DNA from: Trypanosoma brucei
Taxonomy: Eukaryota
DNA: 64,000 bases
Assembly (NCBI GenBank): GCA_000002445.1
Contig: CH464491.1
Coordinates: 4,096,001 to 4,160,000, forward strand
Direction: 5' to 3'
In this document: piece by piece, positions 7,813 through 55,171 of the stretch
Layout of the letters: each line of letters starts with the position of its first letter
How positions within the stretch are numbered: position 1 is the stretch's first letter
The notes under the pieces: generated by a model
The model's input: only the letters and a program-made list of their open reading frames with translations
The model's database searches: none
Told to the model about the DNA's origin: nothing
Made by a program: the position numbers and the translations under genes

Positions 7813-7816
7813 TATA

Positions 7817-7848
<32 letters not shown>
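7813..7848. repeat. (TA)n microsatellite, about 18 units, inside a 3.1-kb gene-free AT-rich spacer
   Basis: tatatatatatatatatatatatatatatatata read directly. The same spacer holds further TA, CAAA and homopolymer runs at 6318-6336, 6629-6650 and 6401-6420. Confidence 0.8.
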
Positions 7849-7851
<3 letters not shown>

Positions 7852-16700: not shown

Positions 16701-18041
16701 CAATGTAATGCTCTGCGATTGCGTTTGAGACCCCGTTAGAATGCTGATGGAGCCTGTTTTCTTCAGTAATAAGGCGACGTCCACCCACCGCTGTTCTGAT
16801 GGGTGCAATGTAGCCATAAACATCGGATAGAAAATATTCTTTAGTTGGTCGGAAAAGGTGTCACATGTAATAGGTTGCATGTTTGGCCCTTCAGGGGGTG
16901 CAGTACGGGGGATGCAAATTGTCCAGCTGTTTAGGGTGAATGAGTTAAACCCTTGTCGACTCACCCACGCAGCAAGTTTCTCTAGTTCCTCCGCATTGTG
17001 TCCATAAACCTTAAGTTGCATTTCTGTGGCAAAGGTCTGTCGCCCCCGGAACTCCCGCTGTTCGAACTCTGGACGAATGATAGACCCAAGGAGATCACCA
17101 TCTCTCGAACCGTTTGTAGAGAGAAATGACTGAAGCAAATCGGTGGCAAAACGGCCTCCTGGGTTGAGCGCCGAGTCAAACGCATCGTATTGCTGAAATT
17201 TGTTGTGATACTTGGGCGGGTGCATCCCAAGTCCTTGCACTGTTAGCTGACGTGGGTCCTTCACACCATGAGATTCCAAGTATTCATGCAGCAGTACGGT
17301 TTTCCCCTTCTCCCGGAATAGCGGGGTACGTGGTTGTTCAGTGGCTGTTGAGATGATGAACTCAAGCACAACCTGAGCTATGACAGAAGTGTTCAACTGT
17401 AGTGCGTTGTCAACGCGCGTACACTGGACATACATATTGTCACCACACACAGGTCTATCTACATTGGACTCTATTTTCCAATTCAACAATGCAAATAACT
17501 GTGACTTTCTCTCCAAAGTAAGGAGTCGGGACCTCGCCGCTGAAAGACAGGGGCCAGATTCAATCACACTGTAGACCAACCGCACGTCCCGTACATACGT
17601 TTCCCACGGTATTACATGCGTCTTCATGCCGCCAAACCGATAAACGCCCCGGTCAAATACTAGTGTTGTCTCGTCGTCCCCTGGGGTAATGTCAGAGGAT
17701 TCTTCCTCGTCGCCCTCTTTTGTTAGGCTATCAAACTCACCCTTGTCTCGTTGCTTGTATTTCTGCCTCGCAAGAATGACATTGGCGATCATCTCTGCAC
17801 ACTTTGCAAAGTCTCTATCGCCGTCATCCTCGCCTATAATAACCCTCTGGTATCGACTCGACGGATTCTTTCTAATATTCTTTCTTCCTGCATCGGCGTT
17901 GAATGCTGTCTTTTCTCTCTGCCACGCAGACTGCTCCGTGCGTGAGAGTTCCGGCTGGGGGCCAGTCTTGATGGAAGTAGGTGATCGGTCACGAGGCGAA
18001 GCAACCGGCCCCGACATGGGAAGGGGCGTTGGATCCGACAT
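13788..18041 (-). CDS. AMP deaminase-like protein (1417 aa) with two tandem AMP/adenosine-deaminase-fold domains, both apparently missing the catalytic zinc ligands (candidate pseudoenzyme)
   Basis: True ATG (cat at 18039..18041; MSDPTPLP..). The C-terminal domain aligns block for block with canonical AMPD ([16 protein letters not shown] vs [25 protein letters not shown] vs [66 protein letters not shown] vs [46 protein letters not shown]). The N-terminal domain is a second, more diverged copy (..[42 protein letters not shown]..). Confidence 0.8.
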   Translation of the reverse strand: [1417 protein letters not shown]

Positions 18042-28850: not shown

Positions 28851-29492
28851 TGTTGGGTGCCGGAAGCTCCTTTCTCGCGTCAACTTAGAAATCCCTCCCT
28901 ACCAATATATGAGCAATGACACGGATGGGGAAATAAAGAGTGTTGATTTGTTTGCATGACAACCCAAAGGTAGAAGGGGAGAGGCTTGATGAAATGAAAA
29001 CCAACTGGAAAAGAAGGGAAGTGTCGCAATTCTCAAAGCATGAGCGCCTGTGTCACAGGCAGGATCTCTAACCCATAAAAACCAATCACGCCCCTGACCT
29101 CACCTGTCTGGCCATCTCACAGCCGTGAACAAAGATGCCTCCACTAGCCGCCTCTGACGGCAGCTGAAATTATATCCGATATCTCCTCCGCTCTCATTCC
29201 CTACTGCGACACGGGTACGAAATCCAATATCTTTTCCTTCCACAAGAATAGCCGAAAATAATGACGACGAAGTTGGTGTGAGGATGCAGATAAGGAAGTA
29301 CGTACTTGTGTGCGCGAAGAGTGGGTGGGAATAGAAGGAAAAAATGTAAAAATAATATGATAGATGCTACTATACTATGCTTCCCTTTAAATCTACACGA
29401 TACTGGCTGCACAACAAGCAATTTCAAATCCCTAATACTGCACCAATATATAAACTAGCTCGGTATCATCTCCACTATTACAATCGACACCA

Positions 29493-37763: not shown

Positions 37764-38676
37764 TCGGAGATGGGAACCTAGTAACACACCACGGATACCC
37801 AAAAGTACGAAAGAAAAAAGAAGAGGATACAATAAATGAAACAGCAAAAACAAACAACAACAACACTTTTTCTTTAGATAGAAAACCAACAACAGGACCC
37901 GCAACAGTATCGTCAAAATCTTGTTTGCCTGCAGCCAAAAGGAGGGGAAAAAACGTTACTGCGAGTAAGAATTGAACTGACGAGACAGACAATAGAGAGA
38001 GCGACACAAAGTTCACGTTATAAGTAACAGCAGGGGTTACGAAAACATGAACAATATCACAAAAGAAATTAAACTAGAAAAAAGAAGCACATTCACGTAT
38101 TTTGGAAGAGCGTTCATTAACCGGTATCACCGACGGCAGTAGTAATAATTACACAACACGTATATATATATGAAGTACAAAGGGTATCAAGAGAAGCACA
38201 GCAACAGCTACATGAAAGCGGACACACACAGCATAACCACTTCACTCTCTTCGGTCAGCAAACCAACAAAAACCATAACATGGGTAAGTCTTGGATTAGA
38301 AACCGAATTAATCCGGATACGAAAAAGGGGGTCCAAAAAGATAGAAGAGTGTGGCGATGTAGAGAAAAAGACAAAGTGAGTTGTGTGACTCACATGACAA
38401 TAGGGAAAGCGGAAAACAGATCCGTATCCCCTCACCCAACTAATACAGCAGCTTCCCACTACTCAAATTAATGAAGGCGCTGACGCAATAAGGATGTGGA
38501 TCTGAATTATACCTCAGTGGGTGGATGCAGCAACAAGTTGCTATGATGTCATGGCAAGAAAGTGCCTAACTACGGGGAGGTACACAAACAAAGTAAACAC
38601 GGCAGCGCACATGGAGGCATTCCAAACAGTAATCCAAAACACAACATATATAGATCTTGTGGGAGGGGAATGTGCT

Positions 38677-38700
38677 ATATATATATATATATATATATAC
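38677..38700. repeat. (TA)12 microsatellite in repeat copy A, (TA)14 in copy B
   Basis: Counted directly: gc(ta)12cg in A, gc(ta)14cg at 45232..45259 in B. Confidence 0.8.
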
Positions 38701-39779
38701 GTAACCACTAATATCAAATCGAGAAGAATTAGGAAAGAGGGAAACGTGAGCAACAAATAAACCATCTGTCAGAAAACGTAACGCATCAGTGTACACAAAC
38801 ACACACAACTCTGGGGTAGTAATGTGCCACACTCCAGAAAACAAGAATCAAACTGAAGCATTTGATCATCAGTTTCACCACACACGAAGGTAAGGGGATA
38901 TATGAAACCAGATTCGCAGGGCTCCTCACAAGTACCACACTTCATCGCGCTGCCCAGTCAGACCACCAAACACCACGTGCGATGTGTGCAGACAAAAGGG
39001 AAGTTTGTGTTGGATGCAGGAAAAGGTATAGTGGCAAAGGGATTTAAAGGACAAAAAGAAGGGATAAAATAGAAAACACTATACAACACGTAATGCAACG
39101 TCTCAACCATAGGGATTAAACACCTAAAGGCTTACCCACCCACAACCCCAACCGCAGAAAATCCAATAATAATGGTGAGGAGGAGGGAAACAGCCTCTCT
39201 AAACAGCGTACCATAGAGACATTTGCGAAAAGGAAAGGGGTATTTTATTTTTGCACAAGGAAAAAAAAGAGCGAGGGAATTAACAAAAATTCAAAAAAAG
39301 GAAAAAAATAGATAGAAAATAACACAAAACCGTCAGTATCATAAGGGAAAATGTTAAAAAACAATCGTTCGCATACAAAGAACAGTAAAATAACAACAAG
39401 AAATGCTGAATTGCCCTTCCATACATTTATATATCTATGGAATTCTACGGCAAGCATCTTTAGACACTCATGAAAACTGTTATAGACATGGCTATGCAGC
39501 GTCCGCGGGGGAGAACGGCATCCAACAAACCATATAATGCAGTTTTCTTACTTCATCCACTAATATTACCAAGTTGCATCATTGATTCATAGGCCTCCCA
39601 TCATCAGTGGCATTATGTGAGACATGCATTTTCAACCCCATATCGCTGTCGCAAATGCCTAAATTCACACAAGAAAGGGGATGAACGAGAAAAATAAAAA
39701 AAACAAGAGGGAAAACAAAGAAGGAAAAGAAAAGAAAAGAGGGTATACTTCAATTAGGTCACGGGTTCTGACACATCCG

Positions 39780-41168
39780 CTACTTCTTAACCTCGTCGTA
39801 AATGGTTAATGCCGTACCAAACACAACAGCGAATACGCCGACAATGAGCAACTGGTATGTGACAGCGTAGTTGAACCACCCAACCTCTTTCAGAGAGAAG
39901 TTCCCCGCATACATGTAATACAGTGCTGGTAGAATAAAAGCAAGGAAGCCACCACAGAAACTTCCAAGAAAGTTGAAGACAACTTCAATACTGGGTAGCA
40001 CAAGTCCCAGTACGAGAGCGAGGGTAGCCAAGACACCACTCACTACGAGGTTCTTCCAGCTGTCAACATCAGACGTCTTCCCCCATCCCAATACATAATA
40101 AATCGCATCACGAGATGGCTGGATGCAAATAGCGAATCCTACGCATATCTTGATAGCGATGCCAACATACCCGATGGCCATCATCACATCATCTTGTGGT
40201 TTGTACAATTTGAGTACGGAGCCTTCTAGATCATTCCCGAAATCAAGATAACCGAAGATACCAGACAAGAAATACAGGAGACCAACCATCGACATCGCCA
40301 CACTACTGTCGCGCGTCATTCGCCGTGGGGTGGGTCCCTTCATCTCTTCATACACCTCAAAACAATTCACCTGACATATGAAGGCAAATACAAACAGTGT
40401 GAAGCCATTCAGAATCCCCCATCCATCACCGACGAGTCGAATGTCCGATCCTATCCCGTCTTTCAAGCCATTCATCGCAGCGTGTACAATCATGCATATC
40501 ACAAAGAAAACAATGAAGAAAACACCCACAGCAGAAGCATATCGAAGTGAGTTAATCTCCTTGGGAAGCGAGAGTGGTAACATGGCAACCAACCAAACTA
40601 CACCAACAATAACGTTCTTTCCCATCGATGTCCTCAGGAATCCAGTTGTTGAAGGCTGATTCAAAAGTGGAGAGAGTAAGTCACCCACTGATATCACGTA
40701 CCCAACGCAGGTTCCAAAGCAGAAAACAAACATCAAGAAAGCCGTAAAGTAGTCTGCACCGCGGCCAAGCAACCCACACGCCATCTCCTCATACGAACGG
40801 AATCCAGTTTTGTCCCTAGTGATCACGAGTATGCGGATAGAGTACACTGTGGTGAAGCAGATGTACACCAACATTAACGTGGCAATTATTATGCCAGAGT
40901 TGAGGAAACCAGAAGGCAGCATCACAATTCCAGCACCAAGGGTAGCACTCTCCAGGTTAAACACATTTGACGCCATTCCACCATATGGAACAATTCCCTT
41001 GATGGGGTCAAATACCGTGTTCAGGCAGCCCCTGTGCTCCCCGTCAGCAGCTGCTGTAGATTTATCGCTGTCTGGAGGTAATTCCAACACATTACCCTGA
41101 GACAAGCTTGGTATTAAGGTTGGGTGTTCGTCCTCGTTTATTATTGGCTCTGTTGCCCTGGGTGACAT
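39780..41168 (-). CDS. amino acid transporter (Aa_trans/AAAP family, AAT-type, ~11 TM), copy 1
   Basis: True ATG (cat at 41166..41168). 462 aa with multiple hydrophobic helices. Typical kinetoplastid AAT architecture: a hydrophilic N-terminus MSPRATEPIINEDEHPTL.. followed by ..LGAGIVMLPSGF... Confidence 0.85.
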   Translation of the reverse strand: MSPRATEPIINEDEHPTLIPSLSQGNVLELPPDSDKSTAAADGEHRGCLNTVFDPIKGIVPYGGMASNVFNLESATLGAGIVMLPSGFLNSGIIIATLMLVYICFTTVYSIRILVITRDKTGFRSYEEMACGLLGRGADYFTAFLMFVFCFGTCVGYVISVGDLLSPLLNQPSTTGFLRTSMGKNVIVGVVWLVAMLPLSLPKEINSLRYASAVGVFFIVFFVICMIVHAAMNGLKDGIGSDIRLVGDGWGILNGFTLFVFAFICQVNCFEVYEEMKGPTPRRMTRDSSVAMSMVGLLYFLSGIFGYLDFGNDLEGSVLKLYKPQDDVMMAIGYVGIAIKICVGFAICIQPSRDAIYYVLGWGKTSDVDSWKNLVVSGVLATLALVLGLVLPSIEVVFNFLGSFCGGFLAFILPALYYMYAGNFSLKEVGWFNYAVTYQLLIVGVFAVVFGTALTIYDEVKK

Positions 41169-41215
41169 CTGCAGTTAACGTGAGTACTTAACTTTACAAT
41201 ATGCGCAGTAAGTGA

Positions 41216-41262
41216 GGAAAAGTAAGAAAATAAGAAAAAAAGAAAAGGAGTCAAACGCCCTG
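41216..41262 (-). promoter_or_regulatory. polypyrimidine tract on the coding strand upstream of the transporter ATG (candidate trans-splicing / polyadenylation signal region)
   Basis: + strand reads gtaagaaaataagaaaaaaagaaaaggag, which is a C/T-rich run on the minus strand 50-100 nt 5' of the ATG. This is the standard kinetoplastid arrangement. An identical tract sits upstream of copy 2 at about 47813..47859. Confidence 0.5.
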
Positions 41263-41410
41263 GCGTAACACAACAGTATATGACACAAACAATCAGGGAG
41301 GCGTAACCACAACATAAACACACAACACACAGATGCGAAAATGAGAGTAAGGACATAGAACTCAAACAGGAGCATTATCCACGCATCTTCACGCAACGCT
41401 TCCCACAACC

Positions 41411-43675
41411 TCAGTTATTGTCATCAAGTATATCCTTCGCAAGCCGCCACCCCCACGGGTTCTCTGCACACGGGTATGGTGGGGCGAGGAGGAGACCCTG
41501 CCGCTTCCGTTCCGCATCCTCCGCAACGTGACGAAGTGCCTGTTGTACCGCAGACACTCCCGTACCCCAAAATAGCAGTGGTTTGTTAGGTACACTCCAT
41601 GCTTGACCTAGAAGTTCCGGTTGAAACGTGCGTCGCCGGCGCTCGAACGGGTTAGCAGCTTTCCGCTCATCATCTTCCCGCAATTCACGCCATGCTTGCA
41701 CATCTGCCGCAGACACGTACGACATGTTTTCTGGTATTGGTAACAGCGGTGGTCGTTCCGCCTCTTCCATGTTTTGGAGCCACTCCATTTCCGTTTTCAC
41801 ATCGTTCTCAATTATACCCAGGATACGCATTGTCATCTTTTCCTTGCGTTGTTGGTGAAGGGCACGTAACTCCTCCGCAATACTTTGTTCGCCACCTTTG
41901 AGGCTCCTTATGATTCGATTAAGCATACGTGCTTTCGTTGCCGCCGCGCTCTGCACGTGGCGGTCCCGGATAACCCTAAGAGTTATTTCACGGATCTTTT
42001 CAAAGAGGGATGATGCCTCCGCATCGTCGTACACGTTAAACATTCCTGGTCCAACCTCACAATGATCTCCCTCGGTTTTGGCGGACTGGATGGCTGATCC
42101 CTCCCCCTCAGGAGGTGACGTCATGTTGCATTGGGCTGTTTTCTTTTCCATTATCTTTTCGTACAACTCCCGACATTGTGCTGCTTCCGGCATATTTTCC
42201 ACGCCGTCGAATAGCTTGGCATTTTCCCTGACGCACCTAATCTGCCGCTCCATCTGCATATGTGCAAGATACCGGAGGCGCTTTTCGTGCAACGATTCCA
42301 GACGTTTATCTTTGGGATCCATAAACATCTTCTCAACTAGGTTGACCACCTTTTGCGTTTTTATGCGGGCGACCTCGGCTTCGGCTTCGCAAGCAAATGC
42401 ATGACCTGTACCCGCAGTTTCTTTAATGTGCTTTACCGTCGATTCATCCCGTTGTTGGATTTGGAGTAGCTTTTGGTACTCTGGCGTGCTTTGCAGTGGG
42501 AGGAGCAATGCCCTTTCGTACCAGCGCTTGGCCCAATCCACGGGGTGTGCTCCCTCTTTAGATGAATAGTACTGGACAACGTCTAATGTGCTTAGCGTGG
42601 CGGCATCCATAGAGTATAGTTTGCGCAGACTTTCAATATACGCACTAAGATTCTCATCCTTTCCCGTGTGTTTGAAGCCACTGCCGAGTGTCAGCCGTGC
42701 AAAAACTTCGCAAAACTGTAGGAACTCCTCCTGGGCTTGCATCTCCGTCAGAACAGTTTCAGCGACGGCGATATCGAGGCCCACAGCGCGGTTAATAACG
42801 CGCTTAAGTCTCTCCATGCGCGACATCTTTCTGCTCCCACCCTTACGCCCCTTCACACCGCCCCTTTGCTGCGCCATCCTTCGAAGTCTTTCGATTTCTG
42901 CCAACTGATGATGCCGTTCCTCCAGTTTAACTTGCCGTAACCGCATCTCGGCATACTTGAACATATTGGCAAGGTGCTTCTGCGTTTCCAAATTGAGTTC
43001 CGCGGTGAGATTCGCCAGCATCCGTCTCTCAGCCTCCGTGCTGACACCTTCACGCTTTTTGTGAACGTAATCTGCAAACACTTGTTTCACGTGTGTCATC
43101 GCATTTTCCAGCCGGTGAACGTTTTCGGGATCGAAAAGGGAGGCATCAGCAGCATCGTATACGGCTTGCGACACACCGAGGGAGTACTGTGGATTCTTGA
43201 GGTGCACCGGCAAACCCAGTTTGACACGCTCGTACTCGTCTCGCACCGTTTTCCGTGGATCTAACTCAAAAACGTCAGCCATTGTGGTTTCGAAATACCT
43301 TCGGCGCTGCTGCTCTGTTGTTTCTGTGGGATGCTCCTGAAGCACTTTGTGCATGTACTTCGCAAAGGCATGCTTTTCGTCAACTGGCACACCTTCCCAT
43401 TCGGCGTCCGTCATGTGCTTTGCGCGCTCCGCCACCTCGCAACCAACACGACGCGTTGCCTCCTTTGAACGCTCCCCCTTGCTCCGTGGTGCTCTCGCTG
43501 AAGGTGAGCCGCCAAGCTCGGCATACAGCGCCTGTCGCTCGAAGTTTTCGCCCTGAGCCTTCTGAGCGGCCACCATTCGACGAACTTTCGCACGTTGACT
43601 ACGGGGATTTAGCAGCGAACTTCCAGGGGCTGGAACAAAGGCAGAGCGTCGGAAAAAAGGTATTGTGTGCCGCAT
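41411..43675 (-). CDS. hypothetical protein (754 aa), charged and helical, with an N-terminus resembling a mitochondrial presequence
   Basis: True ATG (cat at 43673..43675). Starts MRHTIPFFRRSAFVPAPGS.. Non-repetitive. Its last ~68 codons lie inside duplication copy A and recur as a fragment in copy B. Confidence 0.5.
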   Translation of the reverse strand: MRHTIPFFRRSAFVPAPGSSLLNPRSQRAKVRRMVAAQKAQGENFERQALYAELGGSPSARAPRSKGERSKEATRRVGCEVAERAKHMTDAEWEGVPVDEKHAFAKYMHKVLQEHPTETTEQQRRRYFETTMADVFELDPRKTVRDEYERVKLGLPVHLKNPQYSLGVSQAVYDAADASLFDPENVHRLENAMTHVKQVFADYVHKKREGVSTEAERRMLANLTAELNLETQKHLANMFKYAEMRLRQVKLEERHHQLAEIERLRRMAQQRGGVKGRKGGSRKMSRMERLKRVINRAVGLDIAVAETVLTEMQAQEEFLQFCEVFARLTLGSGFKHTGKDENLSAYIESLRKLYSMDAATLSTLDVVQYYSSKEGAHPVDWAKRWYERALLLPLQSTPEYQKLLQIQQRDESTVKHIKETAGTGHAFACEAEAEVARIKTQKVVNLVEKMFMDPKDKRLESLHEKRLRYLAHMQMERQIRCVRENAKLFDGVENMPEAAQCRELYEKIMEKKTAQCNMTSPPEGEGSAIQSAKTEGDHCEVGPGMFNVYDDAEASSLFEKIREITLRVIRDRHVQSAAATKARMLNRIIRSLKGGEQSIAEELRALHQQRKEKMTMRILGIIENDVKTEMEWLQNMEEAERPPLLPIPENMSYVSAADVQAWRELREDDERKAANPFERRRRTFQPELLGQAWSVPNKPLLFWGTGVSAVQQALRHVAEDAERKRQGLLLAPPYPCAENPWGWRLAKDILDDNN

Positions 43676-46376
43676 ATTAGTAGAATTCTAAAAAAAAAAA
43701 CGTACGCCTTTCGAATCGTTAAATATTGGGCTCCTCCACGTAGGGGTGAGCCTGAGAAAACAAGCAGATGGGTCCGATAAATACTCTTACAATAGAGCTG
43801 TTACAAAGGTTTTATGTATTTTTCTCCCTTGAATGATCTTCTTCCCACCATTAAGTGATAAAAGAAAAGAAAGCAGGGGAGATGAGAGTCATAGTGAAGT
43901 TAAAGAAGTGCCATAAACCCCTATTAAAGGACGTCACTAAAAGGAACTGAATAGCAGGTACATCCTGATGCAAACAGGAAACACATCGCACTTGTTTACG
44001 ATGTGGAAGCACAAAATAATGGGGGTGAAAATGTACGGGAAACCACATCTATACACAAAGAATTTGTTCCAGGCACCTGTACGAAATATTTTCATAAACC
44101 CTGCGGCATTCCCAAAATGAAAGTAGTGCCTTAAGCCGAAAGCGGCATCCAAGGCGGCAAACCAAAACTGAAAAGGGGAAAAACAGCGCCTCAACGAAGC
44201 AACCATCTATCCCCATGGGAACAAGCCAACAAACTTTATCCAGGTGGTTCGGGGAGTTCTGTAGCTTCGCTACAAAACACAACGTCTGCCGGTGGCACCA
44301 GGCGCCCCACAATAACTTCCAGTGCCTTTTCAAGCGCAAGCAGGCCCTCGCCCTGCCCAGAAGTTGAACACCAACCTGCCACGTCCGGTAAAATGTAAGG
44401 TATAGGAGCATCATCCGAATGTTCAAAATCATTAAAGGAGGCATCACCGAGACATACAAATAGCGGGTTATCATCCTTCCTAACAACTTTATCGTCCCCC
44501 TGCAAGGGACAATTTACAGAGCCGTTGATATGCAGTGGCGTGGAGCAAAACATATCAACAGCAAATCGCCGCTAAAACTAAAACAAAATAGAACAAAAGC
44601 GCAAGAAGACGATAGGACACATATGCCAATACGTAAAATCAGTCACTCAATAAAAGAAACAGCCTAAAATATTAACCGGTATCACCGACGGCAGTAGTAA
44701 TAATTACACAACACGTATATATATATGAAGTACAAAGGGTATCAAGAGAAGCACAGCAACAGCTACATGAAAGCGGACACACACAGCATAACCACTTCAC
44801 TCTCTTCGGTCAGCAAACCAACAAAAACCATAACATGGGTAAGTCTTGGATTAGAAACCGAATTAATCCGGATACGAAAAAGGGGGTCCAAAAAGATAGA
44901 AGAGTGTGGCGATGTAGAGAAAAAGACAAAGTGAGTTGTGTGACTCACATGACAATAGGGAAAGCGGAAAACAGATCCGTATCCCCTCACCCAACTAATA
45001 CAGCAGCTTCCCACTACTCAAATTAATGAAGGCGCTGACGCAATAAGGATGTGGATCTGAATTATACCTCAGTGGGTGGATGCAGCAACAAGTTGCTATG
45101 ATGTCATGGCAAGAAAGTGCCTAACTACGGGGAGGTACACAAACAAAGTAAACACGGCAGCGCACATGGAGGCATTCCAAACAGTAATCCAAAACACAAC
45201 ATATATAGATCTTGTGGGAGGGGAATGTGCTATATATATATATATATATATATATATACGTAACCACTAATATCAAATCGAGAAGAATTAGGAAAGAGGG
45301 AAACGTGAGCAACAAATAAACCATCTGTCAGAAAACGTAACGCATCAGTGTACACAAACACACACAACTCTGGGGTAGTAATGTGCCACACTCCAGAAAA
45401 CAAGAATCAAACTGAAGCATTTGATCATCAGTTTCACCACACACGAAGGTAAGGGGATATATGAAACCAGATTCGCAGGGCTCCTCACAAGTACCACACT
45501 TCATCGCGCTGCCCAGTCAGACCACCAAACACCACGTGCGATGTGTGCAGACAAAAGGGAAGTTTGTGTTGGATGCAGGAAAAGGTATAGTGGCAAAGGG
45601 ATTTAAAGGACAAAAAGAAGGGATAAAATAGAAAACACTATACAACACGTAATGCAACGTCTCAACCATAGGGATTAAACACCTAAAGGCTTACCCACCC
45701 ACAACCCCAACCGCAGAAAATCCAATAATAATGGTGAGGAGGAGGGAAACAGCCTCTCTAAACAGCGTACCATAGAGACATTTGCGAAAAGGAAATATTA
45801 TTAAGCAAAAAAGCGTAAAAAGGGAGGCGAGGCAAGGAATCACAAAATACTAACTTAATTACTACAGGCAGATAAATAAGGGTAAAAAAAAACAACTATT
45901 GCCGCTACTCAGTATCATAGTCAACAAAAGTTTTTTCGTTGTGCCTCTATAACGCGATAACTAATATTTTTAAAAAACCATAAATTAATTCGTAGAGATT
46001 TCCTCAAACTCTTACATTGCGATAAAGAGATTATCCTTTTTTTTTTTACAGATATTCATCATTGACGTTAAAAAAGTTGTAGATATGGCTATGCAGCGTC
46101 CGCGGGGGAGAGCGGCATCCAACAAACCATATAATGCAGTTTTCTTACTTCATCCACTAATATTACCAAGTTGCATCATTGATTCATAGGCCTCCCATCA
46201 TCAGTGGCATTATGTGAGACATGCATTTTCAACCCCATATCGCTGTCGCAAATGCCTAAATTCACACAAGAAAGGGGATGAACGAGAAGAATAAAAAAAA
46301 CAAGAGGGAAAACAAAGAAGGAAAAGAAAAGAAAAGAGGGTATACTTCAATTAGGTCACGGGTTCTGACACATCCG

Positions 46377-47765
46377 CTACTTCTTAACCTCGTCGTAAAT
46401 GGTTAATGCCGTACCAAACACAACAGCGAATACGCCGACAATGAGCAACTGGTATGTGACAGCGTAGTTGAACCACCCAACCTCTTTCAGAGAGAAGTTC
46501 CCCGCATACATGTAATACAGTGCTGGTAGAATAAAAGCAAGGAAGCCACCACAGAAACTTCCAAGAAAGTTGAAGACAACTTCAATACTGGGTAGCACAA
46601 GTCCCAGTACGAGAGCGAGGGTAGCCAAGACACCACTCACTACGAGGTTCTTCCAGCTGTCAACATCAGACGTCTTCCCCCATCCCAATACATAATAAAT
46701 CGCATCACGAGATGGCTGGATGCAAATAGCGAACCCCCCACAAATCTTGATAGCGATGCCAACATACCCGATGGCCATCATCACATCATCTTGTGGTTTG
46801 TACAATTTGAGTACGGAGCCTTCTAGATCATTCCCGAAATCAAGATAACCGAAGATACCAGACAAGAAATACAGGAGACCAACCATCGACATCGCCACAC
46901 TACTGTCGCGCGTCATTCGCCGTGGGGTGGGTCCCTTCATCTCTTCATACACCTCAAAACAATTCACCTGACATATGAAGGCAAATACAAACAGTGTGAA
47001 GCCATTCAGAATCCCCCATCCATCACCGACGAGTCGAATGTCCGATCCTATCCCGTCTTTCAAGCCATTCATCGCAGCGTGTACAATCATGCATATCACA
47101 AAGAAAACAATGAAGAAAACACCCACAGCAGAAGCATATCGAAGTGAGTTAATCTCCTTGGGAAGCGAGAGTGGTAACATGGCAACCAACCAAACTACAC
47201 CAACAATAACGTTCTTTCCCATCGATGTCCTCAGGAATCCAGTTGTTGAAGGCTGATTCAAAAGTGGAGAGAGTAAGTCACCCACTGATATCACGTACCC
47301 AACGCAGGTTCCAAAGCAGAAAACAAACATCAAGAAAGCCGTAAAGTAGTCTGCACCGCGGCCAAGCAACCCACACGCCATCTCCTCATACGAACGGAAT
47401 CCAGTTTTGTCCCTAGTGATCACGAGTATGCGGATAGAGTACACTGTGGTGAAGCAGATGTACACCAACATTAACGTGGCAATTATTATGCCAGAGTTGA
47501 GGAAACCAGAAGGCAGCATCACAATTCCAGCACCAAGGGTAGCACTCTCCAGGTTAAACACATTTGACGCCATTCCACCAGACGGAACAACTCCCTTGAT
47601 GGGGTCAAATACCGTGTTCAGGCAGCCCCTGTGCTCCCCGTCAGCAGCTGCTGTAGATTTATCGCTGTCTGGAGGTAATTCCAACACATTACCCTGAGAC
47701 AAGCTTGGTATTAAGGTTGGGTGTTCGTCCTCGTTTATTATTGGCTCTGTTGCCCTGGGTGACAT
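46377..47765 (-). CDS. amino acid transporter (Aa_trans/AAAP family), copy 2
   Basis: 462 aa, differing from copy 1 at only about 3 residues (I/V, Y/S in ..KG(I/V)VP(Y/S)GGMASN.. and V/G in ..KIC(V/G)GFAIC..). Same flanking sequence. Confidence 0.85.
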   Translation of the reverse strand: MSPRATEPIINEDEHPTLIPSLSQGNVLELPPDSDKSTAAADGEHRGCLNTVFDPIKGVVPSGGMASNVFNLESATLGAGIVMLPSGFLNSGIIIATLMLVYICFTTVYSIRILVITRDKTGFRSYEEMACGLLGRGADYFTAFLMFVFCFGTCVGYVISVGDLLSPLLNQPSTTGFLRTSMGKNVIVGVVWLVAMLPLSLPKEINSLRYASAVGVFFIVFFVICMIVHAAMNGLKDGIGSDIRLVGDGWGILNGFTLFVFAFICQVNCFEVYEEMKGPTPRRMTRDSSVAMSMVGLLYFLSGIFGYLDFGNDLEGSVLKLYKPQDDVMMAIGYVGIAIKICGGFAICIQPSRDAIYYVLGWGKTSDVDSWKNLVVSGVLATLALVLGLVLPSIEVVFNFLGSFCGGFLAFILPALYYMYAGNFSLKEVGWFNYAVTYQLLIVGVFAVVFGTALTIYDEVKK

Positions 47766-48007
47766 CTGCAGTTAACGTGAGTACTTAACTTTACAATATG
47801 CGCAGTAAGTGAGGAAAAGTAAGAAAATAAGAAAAAAAGAAAAGGAGTCAAACGCCCTGGCGTAACACAACAGTATATGACACAAACAATCAGGGAGGCG
47901 TAACCACAACATAAACACACAACACACAGATGCGAAAATGAGAGTAAGGACATAGAACTCAAACAGGAGCATTATCCACGCATCTTCACGCAACGCTTCC
48001 CACAACC

Positions 48008-48220
48008 TCAGTTATTGTCATCAAGTATATCCTTCGCAAGCCGCCACCCCCACGGGTTCTCTGCACACGGGTATGGTGGGGCGAGGAGGAGACCCTGCCG
48101 CTTCCGTTCCGCATCCTCCGCAACGTGACGAAGTGCCTGTTGTACCGCAGACACTCCCGTACCCCAAAATAGCAGTGGTTTGTTAGGTACACTCCATGCT
48201 TGACCTAGAAGTTCCGGTTG
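48008..48220 (-). pseudogene. truncated 3' fragment of the 754-aa gene created by the duplication breakpoint (last ~68 codons + stop only)
   Basis: The translation ..QPELLGQAWSVPNKPLLFWGTGVSAVQQALRHVAEDAERKRQGLLLAPPYPCAENPWGWRLAKDILDDNN is identical to the C-terminus of the gene at 41411..43675. Upstream of the junction the sequence is unrelated. The M in the ORF track is a TTG. Confidence 0.7.
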
Positions 48221-49054
48221 CAAATTGTAGATAAAGTTTTCGTGGGTAGGGTTGCGCTAACGACTGTTATCCGTATGTTGTTTCAATGAGTATTGTTATC
48301 GCCTTGCAAATGTTCTTTTTCAAGATTTGGAGGAGAAGGAAGCTCTTCGCCTTTTTTCATCGAATCATTCTTTATAACACGAACGTTACGTTGATCCATT
48401 GCGTTTCTGTTCTTTAAATGTTTGAAATCTGAAACTTTTGTCGCATATCAATTGGAACCTATTCTTCTCGTTTGTGTGTGTGTATTTATTAAAAGCTGTC
48501 TCACTTACCTGCTTTTTCGCGTCGTGTTACCTTCCCCCACACTTTAATCACTTTTTCAAACAGCTGACTTTGATTGTTACACTTTTTCCGCAGCGTAACG
48601 CAAGGAAATGCGATAAATCTTTCCCATAACAAAATGTATTTGTTGCACAAAACGACATTTCAGTGAGATGCTACCCCGATCACATTTGTAATGCAGGTAC
48701 ATCGTGTTTTAGTTTCACTCAACCAGGGTTCCACTTGGCAATGGTCACCCGAAACCATTCTGTATATTACATAATCCGCACCGCATGAATACGAAGAGAG
48801 CATTTGTACGTGCCCAAGGGATGTTTAGTGATTTTACTATCCGTGAAAGGGGTAAAAAGGGATTGATTGAGTCCTCTTTGTTCCCTCCACCCCTTTCGGC
48901 AAATGTCAGACTTTTCCTTTCCTTTGCTCCCCCCCCCCAAGGCACACACGTGATTCGTTCAACACATTTATTGGCTAATACACATGCACCGTGCGAGGAT
49001 AGGCGTACGGGTCTAGGGTGAAGAGCACACAAATACACCCAACCATCGGATCCT

Positions 49055-50209
49055 TTACGAAGGGCTCATAAATAACTTTACTACGATAAACATAATGATC
49101 AGTAACTGCATAAAAAAGAAGGACCAAAGTTTGTCAAGGCTGGCCTCCAAGGCTACGATGCGATCACGCTGCTCCAACCATCGTTGTCGTAGTGACTGTA
49201 TGTGTACATCCCGTGCTGCGTGGTGAAGTGCCTTATCCTGGGTTAACGACGGCCTTGCAGTTTTTGTATCAGCAGACGAACCCATGTTGAGGGCGTCGGC
49301 CAAAGAACTGGGATGTGGAGCGCTGTTCATCGTTTGATCGTTCACTCGGGCTGACAATAACGAAGTCATACGCCCGATATTTTGGAGTCCGGCCAAGTGC
49401 CACAAAAGTGAAACTGCGACAACCAAAGCAAGAACAAGCAGCAGACCCTGGAAAAGTGTACTGCTTTGGCCCACTTCCTCACTAGCGGATGGTTCGCTGA
49501 CAGAAGTTTCCTTTGCTGAGTAGGTACCCTCAGATACATCTGACGTCTGCACACATAGAACATCACCGGTCAGATCCTTCGAAATCATTTCCAGCATCTG
49601 CTGATATGCCCGCGTCATCTCCTTTATTGCCCGCGGATTAGCCATATATTGGATGGCAGCAAAGCCCATACTCATTTTCTTGCAACCACCGTACACGGCC
49701 AATGTGATATCTGCATCCTCAGAGGGTGCGGTAATTTCAAGAAGTGCCTCTGTCCGGAAGGTCGTTCCCATTGGTACATTTGGTGTCTGAGAGGATACGT
49801 GATACACGAGTGTTATACCACCACTTGTTGATGACGTGTAGGCAAAACGGTGCGCCTGATTAAGGGTAGTGTCGACGGGCCCTCTGGGTAAGTCCACGGT
49901 GCATTGGAAAGTTAGCGTTCGAAACCCGCTGGCCATGTCCGGCGCGTACTCCCACTTACTCAGCTCCAAGTTCGTCTCTTTTCGACTCCCGTGGTAACGC
50001 TGCAAGAACTCAGCTTTGTCGGAGAAAATAGCATCCCACAACTTGGCTACTGTAACTCCCTTCATCAGTGCCGGTGGGATCATACACTTCTTTTCCTTTA
50101 CCTTGTCGTGTGGTGAAAACATGTTTCTCGATATGCCCATGGTGTACTGCTGCTTATCGAACAAAGCCTGGGCGCTTGCCCCAGAAGCATATCGAATCTC
50201 CCCAGACAT
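49055..50209 (-). CDS. hypothetical membrane protein (~384 aa) with one internal and one C-terminal hydrophobic segment
   Basis: The ORF-track start is GTG; I trimmed to the ATG at 50207..50209 (MSGEIRYASG..). Hydrophobic segments LLLVLALVVAVSLLW and LLIIMFIVVKLF. The N-terminal region ..VTVAKLWDAIFSDKAEFLQRY.. faintly recalls lipid-transfer (VASt-like) domains. That is speculative. Confidence 0.4.
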   Translation of the reverse strand: MSGEIRYASGASAQALFDKQQYTMGISRNMFSPHDKVKEKKCMIPPALMKGVTVAKLWDAIFSDKAEFLQRYHGSRKETNLELSKWEYAPDMASGFRTLTFQCTVDLPRGPVDTTLNQAHRFAYTSSTSGGITLVYHVSSQTPNVPMGTTFRTEALLEITAPSEDADITLAVYGGCKKMSMGFAAIQYMANPRAIKEMTRAYQQMLEMISKDLTGDVLCVQTSDVSEGTYSAKETSVSEPSASEEVGQSSTLFQGLLLVLALVVAVSLLWHLAGLQNIGRMTSLLSARVNDQTMNSAPHPSSLADALNMGSSADTKTARPSLTQDKALHHAARDVHIQSLRQRWLEQRDRIVALEASLDKLWSFFFMQLLIIMFIVVKLFMSPS

Positions 50210-50665
50210 AGCAATCACACGCCTCCAATATATATGACTGTGCTGATATCAGGCCTACCGTGGTACGGAAAAGTACAACCGCAGAATATGGTGTACTTAA
50301 AACAAGTAACAATCGTTACTAAGAGGGAAAGGTTCTCCAAGATACGGGCTAGGATGTCAAACAAAAAAAATCGTTCAACAGAGACGCCCACCCAACGATA
50401 TTAAAACCTACGGTTAAACACTAGAATTTTTTTTGAAAAAAAAAACACCTTTCCAGTGAACAAATTATAATGGTAGACGGTAAGCGAAAAAGTAGTGATA
50501 CCACAAAAAACACCAACAACAGGCATTCGAAAAGGTAAGGAAGCATAAGCAAGGCAGCGAAGACGCTACCAACAGGGCAACTATGTATTATAAAACGTTT
50601 AGGAGTGCAGCACACCTGCCACCTCGTGCGGTGGGAACCCTACCACTGTCAGCAAGAAGTGCTCC

Positions 50666-51260
50666 AAAAAAAAATCCTAAAGAACAAAAAGTACCAGAGA
50701 GGAGCCAGTGCGAGCTTAGAAGCGAAGGCGCTGGAAGAACCAACGGTTGTTACCGGCGTTGTAGCGGGCCTGAAACAGACGTTTCACCAACTGCTTCGAC
50801 TTCGCCTTCTTCGATGCGTCGGAAACATTGATGCGACCGCGCAGTTCACGCGAGAGGTCCATGTTGTATCGGGTTGGTAGAAAGTGCTTGTGATTCACAA
50901 CGCGGAGGAACACACCAACTTGCGAGCGGCGTGTGATGGAGCGCTTGCTCATCCCGCGCACAACCTTTCTTGGGTATTTTTTAATTCCGGCGAGCAACGA
51001 ATGACCGTACGGGCGCTCCTTGTTCCTCGTATCCGTGTTCTGCACGATCACAGCCTTCTTGCCGGCATACCGGCCCGAAGTCATGATCACAACCTTGCCG
51101 GGCTTCAGAAACTTCATCACTGCCAGCACACTAATCCAGTGGGAAATGACAAGAAATAAAAGGACAGCAGATGGGAGATAGCAAGGGTAATAAAGAGTGA
51201 GTATACAAACAGGTTTCAAAGGCATTGGAACGGTGCCGGTGGAAAGACCATTCGGGAAAT
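50666..51260. repeat. ~595-bp direct repeat carrying a complete L27 gene, copy A
   Basis: Identical to 54577..55171 (offset 3911 bp), apart from a mismatch near the right end. Confidence 0.9.
50716..51117 (-). CDS. RPL27: 60S ribosomal protein L27 (133 aa), copy 1
   Basis: MKFLKPGKVVIMTSGRYAGKKAVIVQNTD...RYNAGNNRWFFQRLRF is an unmistakable eukaryotic L27e sequence. The ATG (cat at 51115..51117) was chosen over the upstream in-frame extension, which reads through spacer. Confidence 0.9.
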   Translation of the reverse strand: MKFLKPGKVVIMTSGRYAGKKAVIVQNTDTRNKERPYGHSLLAGIKKYPRKVVRGMSKRSITRRSQVGVFLRVVNHKHFLPTRYNMDLSRELRGRINVSDASKKAKSKQLVKRLFQARYNAGNNRWFFQRLRF

Positions 51261-54576: not shown

Positions 54577-55171
54577 GAAAAAAAATCCTAAAGAACAAAA
54601 AGTACCAGAGAGGAGCCAGTGCGAGCTTAGAAGCGAAGGCGCTGGAAGAACCAACGGTTGTTACCGGCGTTGTAGCGGGCCTGAAACAGACGTTTCACCA
54701 ACTGCTTCGACTTCGCCTTCTTCGATGCGTCGGAAACATTGATGCGACCGCGCAGTTCACGCGAGAGGTCCATGTTGTATCGGGTTGGTAGAAAGTGCTT
54801 GTGATTCACAACGCGGAGGAACACACCAACTTGCGAGCGGCGTGTGATGGAGCGCTTGCTCATCCCGCGCACAACCTTTCTTGGGTATTTTTTAATTCCG
54901 GCGAGCAACGAATGACCGTACGGGCGCTCCTTGTTCCTCGTATCCGTGTTCTGCACGATCACAGCCTTCTTGCCGGCATACCGGCCCGAAGTCATGATCA
55001 CAACCTTGCCGGGCTTCAGAAACTTCATCACTGCCAGCACACTAATCCAGTGGGAAATGACAAGAAATAAAAGGACAGCAGATGGGAGATAGCAAGGGTA
55101 ATAAAGAGTGAGTATACAAACAGGTTTCAAAGGCATTGGAACGGTGCCGGTGGAAAAACCATTCGGGAAAA
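54577..55171. repeat. ~595-bp direct repeat carrying a complete L27 gene, copy B
   Basis: See copy A. Confidence 0.9.
54627..55028 (-). CDS. RPL27: 60S ribosomal protein L27 (133 aa), copy 2
   Basis: Nucleotide-identical CDS to copy 1. ATG at 55026..55028. Confidence 0.9.
   Translation of the reverse strand: MKFLKPGKVVIMTSGRYAGKKAVIVQNTDTRNKERPYGHSLLAGIKKYPRKVVRGMSKRSITRRSQVGVFLRVVNHKHFLPTRYNMDLSRELRGRINVSDASKKAKSKQLVKRLFQARYNAGNNRWFFQRLRF

What the first reader, a model, noticed from the sequence alone, without database searches (positions are those of the whole stretch)
38116..48220. 3.5-kb segmental duplication of an amino-acid-transporter cassette with a breakpoint inside the neighbouring gene
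Two copies sit 6.55 kb apart. Each holds the transporter 3' flank, the AAT gene, the 5' spacer and the last 210 bp of the 754-aa gene. Copy A is followed by the intact 754-aa gene. Copy B is followed by unrelated sequence, so only a C-terminal remnant survives at 48008..48220. This is not a clean tandem duplication of one unit. It looks like unequal crossover or replication-based duplication with one junction inside a coding region. The copies are nearly identical at nucleotide level, which means they are either very recent or homogenised by gene conversion, as happens in kinetoplastid transporter arrays. Copy number may vary between strains, and short-read assemblies may collapse the two copies.
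Basis: seen in the sequence. Interest (0 to 1): 0.55.

Follow-up and report, generated by a model that had tools for sequence, protein, structure and literature searches.

The report
Duplicated trypanosome lysine-transporter gene pair
This is the already published two-gene TbAAT16 lysine-transporter locus on Trypanosoma brucei chromosome 11: an old, non-tandem duplication whose copies are kept almost identical by gene conversion, so it is real but ordinary.

Summary
Copy B carries a 213-bp, 71-codon remnant of the neighbouring 754-aa gene at 48008-48220. Block 1 (1.12 kb) differs only by a TA-microsatellite indel and block 2 (2.15 kb) is 99.3% identical. Between them sits a patch that does not align (236 bp in A, 274 bp in B).

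The window is T. brucei TREU927 chromosome 11. The genes are TbAAT16 (Tb927.11.15840 and Tb927.11.15860), essential high-affinity lysine transporters that differ by 3 amino acids. They flank KPAC1/mt-SAF5. Jackson 2007 and Mathieu 2017 already describe this two-gene locus.

L. major, T. cruzi, T. conorhini, T. theileri and T. vivax have one AAT16, downstream of KPAC1. T. brucei subspecies have a second copy upstream, and T. congolense apparently does too.

Across three T. brucei-group genomes:
- 14 sites are strain-specific but shared by both copies.
- 7 sites are fixed paralogue differences, clustered in three small islands.

That pattern means an old duplication homogenised by gene conversion, not a recent one. 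A short-read assembly breaks at both ends of copy B. All four strains examined have two copies. How the duplication arose is unresolved. Interest is low.

The parts
38116..39236 (-). Copy A, distal block (block 1): far 3' flank of AAT16-A. Identical to 44671-45795 except for a TA-repeat indel.
38246..38310 (-). Conserved single-hairpin RNA-like element ending in AGAGA, copy A
39237..39472 (-). Patch A: 236 bp that do not align with the corresponding part of copy B
39473..39779 (-). Copy A, proximal 3' flank of AAT16-A (start of block 2)
39780..41168 (-). AAT16-A, 462 aa, Aa_trans (PF01490). Identical to TREU927 EAN80529 (by gene order Tb927.11.15840 = TbAAT16-1, the lysine transporter). Has I59, Y62, V343.
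41169..41410 (-). Spacer between KPAC1 and AAT16-A, with a polypyrimidine tract and AG acceptors: the inferred trans-splicing signal of AAT16. Duplicated at 47766-48007.
   Evidence: function inferred from established trypanosome mRNA processing
41411..43675 (-). KPAC1 / mt-SAF5, 754 aa, intact (identical to TREU927 EAN80530). Only its last 213 bp (41411-41623) lie inside the repeat.
43676..44670 (-). Unique spacer upstream of KPAC1, holding a 105-aa ORF (44236-44553) that is also called as a gene in related genomes
44671..45795 (-). Copy B, distal block (block 1)
44801..44865 (-). Conserved hairpin element, copy B. It lies 1126 bp upstream of the KPAC1 ATG, a position comparable to the elements of T. 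congolense (964 bp) and L. major (about 950 bp).
45796..46069 (-). Patch B: 274 bp that do not align with patch A
46070..46376 (-). Copy B, proximal 3' flank of AAT16-B
46377..47765 (-). AAT16-B, 462 aa. Identical to TREU927 EAN80531 (by gene order Tb927.11.15860). Has V59, S62, G343.
47766..48007 (-). Duplicated spacer with the polypyrimidine tract upstream of AAT16-B
48008..48220 (-). Remnant of the KPAC1 C-terminus (codons 684-754 plus stop). Identical to 41411-41623, has no ATG, and is presumably non-coding.
49055..50218 (-). VASt-domain gene, the upstream neighbour of copy B. Its 3' flank (48221-49054) is unrelated to KPAC1.

Best explanation
The window is Trypanosoma brucei TREU927 chromosome 11, and the repeat is the published two-gene TbAAT16 locus. 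TbAAT16 is a high-affinity lysine transporter that is essential by RNAi.

The ancestral trypanosomatid gene order is VASt - (small ORF) - KPAC1 - AAT16 - TARBP1-like. In the lineage leading to T. brucei, and most likely to T. congolense after T. vivax split off, a segment was copied into the VASt-KPAC1 spacer. That segment held the last 213 bp of KPAC1, the intergenic trans-splicing region, AAT16 and its 3' flank. The result is AAT16 - KPAC1 - AAT16.

The junction inside KPAC1 is an illegitimate breakpoint. It is harmless because the intact KPAC1 was untouched.

Since then the two copies have evolved in concert through repeated short-tract gene conversion, so they look recent although they are not. 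Three small islands resist homogenisation. Two of them carry the amino-acid differences I59V/Y62S and V343G, and the B-type protein has a different substrate range in yeast. A 236/274-bp stretch of the 3' flank also escaped and has diverged beyond alignment.

Shown: the structure, the synteny, the concerted site patterns and the gene identity. Inferred: the timing relative to T. congolense, selection on the islands, and the molecular mechanism of the original copying.
For: Identity of the locus:
- AAT-A, KPAC1 and AAT-B are 100% identical to TREU927 EAN80529, EAN80530 and EAN80531.
- Mathieu 2017 (PMC5207785) describes two TbAAT16 genes, Tb927.11.15840 and Tb927.11.15860, 99% identical at nucleotide level and differing by 3 aa. 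RNAi is lethal and rescued by lysine. 7520-type clones complement histidine uptake in yeast; 7500-type clones do not.
- Jackson 2007 (PMC1810246) lists AAT16 as 2 copies in T. brucei and 1 each in L. major and T. cruzi.

Synteny:
- There is a single AAT downstream of KPAC1, and none between VASt and KPAC1, in T. cruzi, T. vivax, T. theileri, L. major and T. conorhini.
- T. congolense contig L005 starts with an AAT 3' end upstream of KPAC1 that is 98.2% identical to the downstream AAT.
- Two T. congolense AAT16 proteins differ by 3 aa.
- TCIL3000_11_15770 (AAT) and TCIL3000_11_15780 (VASt) carry consecutive numbers.

Concerted evolution (six-sequence comparison, TREU927/DAL972/GCA_003543875.1 x A/B):
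- 14 sites are strain-specific but shared by both copies.
- 7 sites are paralogue-specific in all strains, confined to 41624, 40984-40994 and 40140-40146.
- 5 sites are mixed.
- Protein position 18 is L in both TREU927 copies and S in both DAL972 copies.
- Y62 is conserved in all the Trypanosoma species aligned (H in Leishmania), and V343 is ancestral.

Parallel case in the same window: the RPL27 pair flanking the 1038-aa gene is 99.8% identical. T. cruzi and T. conorhini have the same arrangement, again with near-identical copies.
Against: - The T. congolense upstream copy is seen only as a 499-bp contig-end fragment of mediocre quality (4 gaps, one N), plus an inference from gene numbering. 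Its 5' side, and any KPAC1 remnant, could not be retrieved.
- The non-homologous patch in the middle is not explained by a simple 'copy 3.5 kb once, then homogenise' model.
- The T. congolense repeat ends about 200 bp past the stop codon. This leaves open that block 1 and block 2 have separate histories.
- No population data were examined. The GCA_003543875.1 assembly also shows signs of indel errors, including a split TARBP1 gene.
- Selection on the islands rests on one yeast complementation result.
Confidence: 0.8

Rival explanations
1. A very recent, T. brucei-specific duplication. The copies are nearly identical simply because little time has passed.
For: Block 1 has no substitutions and block 2 is 99.3% identical. 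The KPAC1 remnant is identical to its source.
Against: - The boundaries and paralogue-specific sites are the same in TREU927, DAL972 and GCA_003543875.1.
- 14 strain-specific substitutions are shared by both copies. Under a pre-divergence duplication without conversion, that would need 14 parallel mutations.
- The differences are tightly clustered (5 in 10 bp, 3 in 11 bp) rather than scattered.
- The middle patch is unalignable.
- T. congolense has an AAT fragment in the same upstream position.
Confidence: 0.04
2. Independent duplications of AAT16 into the same spacer in T. brucei and in T. congolense, each homogenised or recent.
For: - The copies cluster by species.
- The 3' extent of the repeat differs: about 200 bp past the stop in T. 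congolense against 307 bp, then a patch, then 1.1 kb in T. brucei.
- T. theileri independently copied a different piece into the same VASt-KPAC1 spacer: the hairpin plus the 5' part of gene Y. The spacer therefore seems prone to receiving sequence from downstream of AAT16.
Against: - The donor, target spacer and orientation are the same, and the AAT-to-hairpin distance is similar (1465 bp vs 1470-1512 bp).
- G343 is shared by T. brucei copy B and by the T. congolense AAT16 sequences recovered.
- One event followed by concerted evolution is more parsimonious. The RPL27 pair shows such a history at this very locus.
Confidence: 0.12
3. Assembly artefact: one real copy placed twice, or a misjoin.
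For: The short-read T. equiperdum OVI assembly has only one AAT at this locus.
Against: - Three other assemblies made from different strains carry both copies with the same junctions and the same copy-specific patch.
- Both genes were PCR-cloned from Lister 427 (PMC5207785).
- The OVI contigs end 31-35 bp inside the edges of copy B, the signature of an unresolved repeat. Its AAT is an A/B chimera carrying the B-type patch.
Confidence: 0.01
4. Rival account of origin. The two deeply conserved hairpin elements already flanked [small ORF - KPAC1 - AAT16] as direct repeats, and they provided the homology for the event. There are two variants:
(i) Unequal exchange between them made a tandem duplication of the 6.5-kb unit, followed by deletion of the first unit up to KPAC1 codon 683.
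(ii) A break upstream of the upstream hairpin was repaired by invasion at the downstream hairpin, with synthesis through AAT16 into KPAC1 and end-joining to the VASt side.
For: - The hairpin lies upstream of KPAC1 at similar distances in L. major (about 950 bp), T. congolense (964 bp) and T. brucei (1126 bp).
- It lies downstream of AAT16 in T. cruzi, T. conorhini, T. theileri and T. brucei.
- The left repeat boundary is only 130 bp beyond the hairpin. The right boundary is an abrupt junction without microhomology, as expected for one homologous end and one illegitimate end.
- The T. brucei VASt-to-small-ORF spacer without the insert (831 + 117 bp) matches the T. vivax spacer (931 bp).
Against: - T. 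vivax shows no hairpin in the sequence available, and T. cruzi and T. conorhini lack the upstream one. Ancestral two-copy status therefore needs several losses.
- The internal patch is not predicted by this model.
- Nothing distinguishes it from a homology-independent insertion whose distal end simply included the hairpin.
Confidence: 0.25

Closest known systems
TbAAT16 locus (Tb927.11.15840 / Tb927.11.15860; Tb427tmp.01.7500 / .7520), described by Jackson 2007 and Mathieu et al. 2017
   Same: It is this locus. The proteins are 100% identical to the TREU927 entries. There are two genes 99% identical at nucleotide level, with 3 amino-acid differences at positions 59, 62 and 343, on chromosome 11.
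   Different: The parts of those papers I read do not give the breakpoints, the KPAC1 remnant, the non-homologous patch or the cross-strain evidence for concerted evolution. Jackson tested concerted evolution only for loci with more than two copies.
Tandem AAT arrays of T. brucei evolving in concert (AAT2, AAT5, AAT7; Jackson 2007, PMC1810246 and PMC1855330)
   Same: Same gene family and same process: gene conversion between linked paralogues, with partial short tracts and sub-lineages that stay distinct.
   Different: This is not a head-to-tail array. The two copies are separated by an unrelated single-copy gene (KPAC1). Unequal crossover between them would delete or duplicate KPAC1, so copy number is expected to be constrained.
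RPL27 - 1038-aa gene - RPL27 pair in the same window (50667-51259 / 54578-55170)
   Same: Interspersed direct duplicates flanking a unique gene, 99.8% identical within the species. The arrangement is old: T. cruzi and T. conorhini share it, each with its own near-identical pair.
   Different: The repeat is shorter (593 bp), covers a highly expressed ribosomal protein gene, and has no truncated neighbour gene at its edge.
LdAAP7 / TcAAP7 lysine transporters of Leishmania and T. cruzi
   Same: These are the positional and sequence orthologues: 58-66% identity and the same gene order, KPAC1 - AAT - TARBP1-like.
   Different: They are single-copy at this locus.
Trypanosomatid single-hairpin H/ACA-like snoRNAs with an AGA box (for the conserved element inside the repeat)
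   Same: About 65 nt, one hairpin with an internal loop, invariant loop sequences, conserved AGAGA just 3' of the basal stem, and an intergenic position within a polycistron.
   Different: No Rfam family matches. No rRNA target or expression was tested. It stands alone rather than in a snoRNA cluster.

Membership tests
AAAP amino-acid transporters (Pfam Aa_trans, PF01490) | Full-length match to the Aa_trans profile above the gathering score | tested here: met
   Both copies match: E 1.5e-58 and 2.7e-59, 199-201 bits against a cut-off of 25.6, profile positions 4/5-409 of 410
TbAAT16 (T. brucei lysine transporter locus) | Sequence identity to Tb927.11.15840/15860 products and the published 3-aa difference | tested here: met
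   100% identical to EAN80529 and EAN80531. The differences are I59V, Y62S and V343G, matching PMC5207785, which reports 3 differing residues and V343G/G343V variants.
TbAAT16 (T. brucei lysine transporter locus) | Chromosomal context: the two genes flank one unrelated gene on chromosome 11 | tested here: met
   EAN80529-80530-80531 are consecutive. The TREU927 contig is 5.26 Mb. The order is AAT - KPAC1 - AAT.
TbAAT16 (T. brucei lysine transporter locus) | High-affinity lysine transport and essentiality | not testable with these tools
   Taken from PMC5207785. Only TbAAT16-1 (7500 type) was characterised kinetically.
Concerted evolution by gene conversion between paralogues | Paralogues within a lineage share derived states that differ between lineages | tested here: met
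   14 such sites across TREU927, DAL972 and GCA_003543875.1. L18/S18 at the protein level.
Concerted evolution by gene conversion between paralogues | Mosaic pattern: conflicting site patterns in discrete tracts | tested here: met
   The 7 paralogue-specific sites sit in three islands (1, 3 and 3 sites, the latter two within 11 and 7 bp), among strain-type sites. 5 sites are mixed, for example the GCA_003543875.1 copy A at 40143 and 40137.
Concerted evolution by gene conversion between paralogues | The duplication predates the lineages compared (positional orthology of both copies in a sister species) | tested here: inconclusive
   Met among the T. brucei subspecies. For T. congolense there is only a 499-bp contig-end fragment plus gene numbering.
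Tandem gene array | Head-to-tail repeat units with no unrelated gene between them | tested here: not met
   3.0 kb of unique sequence, including the intact KPAC1 gene, separates the copies.
Microhomology-mediated (MMEJ / template-switch) junction | At least 2-5 bp shared by donor flank and target at the breakpoints | tested here: not met
   0 bp at the left junction. At the right junction only AAA, and only if a 1-bp offset is allowed. After long evolution and conversion this test is weak.
Trypanosomatid H/ACA-like snoRNA (hairpin element) | Single hairpin with conserved structure supported by compensatory changes | tested here: met
   18 pairs, 5 with changes on both sides across 6 species. 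94% of cells are paired against 18-53% when the partners are slid. With so few sequences the shuffle control is only 30/500.
Trypanosomatid H/ACA-like snoRNA (hairpin element) | AGA box a few nucleotides from the 3' end | tested here: inconclusive
   GAAGAGA is invariant directly after the basal stem in all 6 species, but the RNA's 3' end is unknown.
Trypanosomatid H/ACA-like snoRNA (hairpin element) | Guide pocket complementary to an rRNA/snRNA target; expression as a small RNA bound by Cbf5 | not tested
There was no Rfam match, and no match to the sequence in the papers or supplements searched.

The most novel reading that the evidence does not exclude
The distal block of the repeat carries an apparently uncatalogued, deeply conserved single-hairpin RNA gene, shared from Leishmania to Trypanosoma and resembling an H/ACA-like snoRNA. 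Ancient copies of it on both sides of [KPAC1 - AAT16] were the homology that seeded the AAT16 duplication in African trypanosomes. They also seeded a separate partial duplication between the same two spacers in T. theileri. Under this reading a small RNA gene pair acts as a recurrent recombination substrate that reshapes a nutrient-transporter locus.
Probability: 0.2. Interest if true: 0.4.

Novelty: already known. Interest (0 to 1): 0.15.

Why it matters
The practical value is modest.

- **Locus map.** The report gives a base-level map of a locus encoding an essential nutrient transporter of a pathogen.
- **Design of experiments.** Knock-out, RNAi or CRISPR designs and short-read variant calls at TbAAT16 must allow for two 99% identical copies, plus identical 5' and proximal 3' regulatory sequence.
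- **Assembly errors.** Draft assemblies lose one copy and produce chimeric proteins here.
- **Method.** High identity is a poor clock in trypanosome genomes. Two interspersed duplicates in this one window look 'recent' yet are shared across species.
- **Possible functional difference.** The islands that resist homogenisation (I59V/Y62S, V343G) point at residues that may matter for substrate range.

None of this changes current understanding of trypanosome genome evolution.

Tried and rejected
- **Rfam.** The gathering scan of the whole window and the permissive scan of 38000-39800 found nothing.
- **Microhomology and residual homology.** There is no microhomology at the junctions and no residual homology outside the boundaries.
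- **Gene Y remnants.** I looked for remnants of 'gene Y' (496 aa in T. cruzi, between AAT and TARBP1) in T. brucei, T. congolense and T. vivax. There are none, so the left boundary cannot be tied to a decayed gene.
- **T. congolense 5' side.** I tried to reach the 5' side of the T. congolense upstream copy through its VASt protein. The protein TCIL3000_11_15780 is on record but has no contig.
- **TREU927 contig look-up.** The exact-sequence look-up of the TREU927 contig for AAT-B found nothing on record.
- **Literature search for the hairpin.** I searched for its sequence in the paper library and in the supplements of two T. brucei snoRNA papers. There was no match, or no supplement was held.
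- **Third AAT paralogue as donor.** I considered whether a third AAT paralogue donated the clustered differences. There is no other AAT in the window, and the variant states match ancestral or T. congolense states instead.
- **Patch as mobile element.** I considered whether the patch is an inserted mobile element. It has no repeat elsewhere in the window, and it is A/T-rich low-complexity sequence of similar length in both copies.


Full report
**1. The observation**

A self-comparison of the window finds two collinear direct repeats. Block 1 is 38116-39236 = 44671-45795; it has no substitutions and one 4-bp TA-microsatellite indel. Block 2 is 39473-41626 = 46070-48224, 99.3% identical with 14 mismatches.

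A base-by-base alignment places the left boundary at 38116/44671. The right boundary is at 41623/48220, with two more matching bases after one mismatch. Sequence outside both boundaries scores no better than shuffled sequence.

All long ORFs in the window are on the - strand, which is typical of a trypanosomatid polycistron. In the direction of transcription the order is:
- RPL27
- a 1038-aa gene
- RPL27
- a VASt-domain gene (49055-50218)
- a 71-codon remnant of the 754-aa gene (48008-48220)
- AAT copy B (46377-47765)
- a 105-aa ORF
- the intact 754-aa gene (41411-43675)
- AAT copy A (39780-41168)
- a TARBP1/SpoU-like methyltransferase
- Fe-SOD

Between the two blocks, A 39237-39472 (236 bp) and B 45796-46069 (274 bp) do not align. 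Their global alignment score is only marginally above shuffled controls.

**2. What and where it is**

The three proteins are identical to consecutive T. brucei brucei TREU927 entries: EAN80529 (AAT), EAN80530 and EAN80531 (AAT), on a 5.26-Mb contig.

The 754-aa protein is annotated as 'kinetoplast poly(A) polymerase complex 1 subunit'. It is chain F5 (mt-SAF5) of the mitoribosomal small-subunit assembly intermediate 6SGA.

The transporters are Aa_trans family members. Their orthologues are named L-lysine transporter AAT16/AAP7.

Jackson 2007 lists this locus as AAT16: Tb11.01.7500, two copies in T. brucei and one each in L. major and T. cruzi (PMC1810246).

Mathieu et al. 2017 (PMC5207785) report the following:
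- The two genes are Tb927.11.15840 and Tb927.11.15860.
- They are 99% identical at nucleotide level and differ by three residues.
- TbAAT16-1 is a lysine transporter.
- Knock-down is lethal.
- 7520-type clones, but not 7500-type clones, complement histidine uptake in yeast.

The three differences I find (I59V, Y62S, V343G) include the position-343 variants those authors name. The duplication is therefore already in the reference annotation and in the literature.

**3. Not an artefact, but a trap for short reads**

T. b. gambiense DAL972 (L009) and the chromosome-scale T. b. equiperdum assembly GCA_003543875.1 (L001) have the same two copies. The outer boundaries, the KPAC1 remnant and the copy-specific patches are the same.

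- One contig ends 35 bp inside the right edge of copy B (L008).
- Another contig starts 31 bp inside its left edge (L003).
- The single AAT that remains is a chimera, with A-type residues 59/62, B-type residue 343 and the B-type patch.
- The same contig also collapses the RPL27 pair and drops the 1038-aa gene between the copies.

**4. Age**

Gene order around KPAC1 is conserved across trypanosomatids. L. major, T. cruzi, T. conorhini, T. theileri and T. vivax have a single AAT16 downstream of KPAC1 and none between VASt and KPAC1. Copy A is therefore the ancestral position and copy B is the insertion.

The T. brucei VASt-to-small-ORF spacer without the insert (831 + 117 bp) is about as long as the T. 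vivax spacer (931 bp). This argues for a clean insertion.

The evidence that T. congolense shares the arrangement has three parts:
- Contig L005 begins with the last ~300 bp of an AAT plus 200 bp of flank, upstream of KPAC1 and in the same orientation. This stretch is 98.2% identical to the complete AAT downstream of KPAC1.
- Two T. congolense AAT16 proteins differ at 3 residues.
- The AAT TCIL3000_11_15770 is numbered consecutively with the VASt gene TCIL3000_11_15780.

The AAT - KPAC1 - AAT arrangement is thus most probably shared by T. brucei and T. congolense, and arose after T. vivax branched off. T. brucei and T. congolense AAT16 differ by about 25% at nucleotide level, and their flanks no longer align. 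A 99%-identical pair of that age therefore requires homogenisation.

**5. Direct evidence for gene conversion**

I aligned copies A and B from TREU927, DAL972 and GCA_003543875.1, leaving out the patch.
- 14 sites carry a strain-specific base shared by both copies of that strain.
- 7 sites are paralogue-specific in all three strains. They fall at 41624, at 40984-40994 (codons 59-62) and at 40140-40146 (codons 341-344).
- 5 sites are mixed. For example, the GCA_003543875.1 copy A has B-type silent bases on either side of its A-type V343 codon.

One tree cannot produce both patterns, so the copies exchange short tracts.

Y62 is conserved in every Trypanosoma orthologue aligned (H in Leishmania), and V343 is the ancestral state. 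G343 is shared by T. brucei copy B and the T. congolense AAT16 sequences recovered.

The islands look like old differences protected from conversion, plausibly by selection. The 59/62 island distinguishes the clone types that behave differently in yeast. This last step is inference.

The RPL27 pair in the same window is a useful control. T. cruzi and T. conorhini share its arrangement, yet the copies are 99.8-100% identical within each species.

**6. Mechanism of origin (unresolved)**

The right junction lies after KPAC1 codon 683 and has no convincing microhomology. The left junction has none.

The duplicated segment contains the whole KPAC1-AAT16 spacer with its polypyrimidine tract and AG acceptors. 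From the established coupling of trans-splicing and polyadenylation in trypanosomes, two things can be inferred:
- Copy B inherited the same 5' processing signals as copy A.
- The VASt mRNA probably ends in or near the KPAC1 remnant.

A possible homology anchor turned up inside block 1, 130 bp from the left boundary. It is a ~65-nt element (38246-38310 and 44801-44865, - strand). It is the only part of the AAT16 flank that is conserved between species.

The element folds into one hairpin with 18 pairs. Five of them show compensatory double changes across six species, and an invariant GAAGAGA follows the basal stem. A covariance model finds it only at these places.

Its positions are:
- Upstream of KPAC1 in L. 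major, T. congolense and T. brucei, at 950-1126 bp from the ATG.
- Downstream of AAT16 in T. cruzi, T. conorhini, T. theileri and T. brucei.

T. theileri has both copies, inside its own 86-95% identical duplication. That duplication moved the hairpin plus the 5' part of a gene absent from African trypanosomes into the same VASt-KPAC1 spacer.

Two old hairpin copies flanking KPAC1-AAT16 could therefore have mediated the event. One route is unequal exchange followed by deletion. The other is one-ended homologous repair finished by end-joining inside KPAC1. I rate this at about 0.25. Equally, the hairpin may simply have been carried along in the copied segment.

The internal patch fits neither model neatly. 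It may be low-complexity 3'-flank sequence that acquired indels, became a block to conversion and then diverged. Alternatively it may mark separate histories for block 1 and block 2, because in T. congolense homology stops about 200 bp past the stop codon.

**7. Verdict**

- The duplication is old, not recent.
- All four strains examined have two copies.
- It is already described as the TbAAT16 locus.

New details from this analysis are incremental: the exact breakpoints, the KPAC1 remnant, the unconverted patch and islands, and the T. congolense and outgroup synteny. The conserved hairpin is the only item that might merit a separate look.

Noticed in passing
window 38246-38310 (-) and 44801-44865 (-); L010 8979-9052; L005 1768-1823; L004 16742-16797; L011 16460-16515; L007 7111-7166 and 16463-16518: A ~65-nt single-hairpin element followed by invariant GAAGAGA, conserved from Leishmania to Trypanosoma. 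Five of its 18 base pairs show compensatory changes. It resembles a trypanosomatid H/ACA-like snoRNA. There is no Rfam match, and no match to its sequence in the papers or supplements searched.
   Followed up: partly
window 50667-51259 and 54578-55170 (-): A second interspersed duplication: two RPL27 (L27e) genes, 99.8% identical over 593 bp, flank a 1038-aa gene. T. cruzi and T. conorhini have the same arrangement, each with its own 99.8-100% identical pair. It is therefore an old duplicate kept uniform by conversion.
   Followed up: partly
L007 (T. theileri) 6428-7630 vs 16396-17296: T. theileri has its own partial duplication into the VASt-KPAC1 spacer. It contains the hairpin and rearranged 5' pieces of a 330-aa gene that lies between AAT16 and the TARBP1-like gene, at 86-95% identity (100% around the hairpin). 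The same two spacers exchange sequence as in T. brucei, but without the AAT.
   Followed up: partly
L004 16870-18360, L011 16730-18100, L007 16606-17595 vs window 37917-39779: A gene of 330-496 aa lies between AAT16 and the TARBP1-like gene in T. cruzi, T. conorhini and T. theileri. tblastn finds no trace of it in the T. brucei, T. congolense or T. vivax sequence examined. Only the hairpin just upstream of it is retained in T. brucei.
   Followed up: partly
L003 and L008 (T. equiperdum OVI, GCA_001457755.2): The short-read assembly breaks 31-35 bp inside both edges of AAT16 copy B and yields a chimeric A/B transporter protein (SCU70202). It also collapses the RPL27 pair, dropping the 1038-aa gene. 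The same chimera (7500_V343G) was cloned by PCR from Lister 427 in PMC5207785, so it could alternatively be a real conversion allele.
   Followed up: partly
window 44236-44553 (-): A 105-aa ORF just upstream of KPAC1 is called as a gene in several related genomes (99-114 aa in T. cruzi, T. conorhini, T. theileri and T. vivax). Sequence similarity is only weak: T. vivax against T. congolense gives 33% over 45 aa. It has no Pfam family.
   Followed up: no
window 28225-28473 (-), inside the 804-aa ORF 26469-28883: A 33/99-bp imperfect tandem repeat (about 6 x 33 bp, 77-87% matches) lies within a coding region that has no Pfam match.
   Followed up: no
window 6001-8000: An AT-rich interval (GC 0.34 against about 0.48 for the window) with no ORF of 200 aa or more.
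   Followed up: no
L001 13398-18547 (GCA_003543875.1): The TARBP1/SpoU-like gene is intact in the window (1767-aa ORF) but split into 550-aa and 717-aa calls in the chromosome-scale T. b. equiperdum assembly. That assembly also shows many small indels relative to TREU927. These are probably uncorrected sequencing errors, so indel differences from it should be ignored.
   Followed up: no
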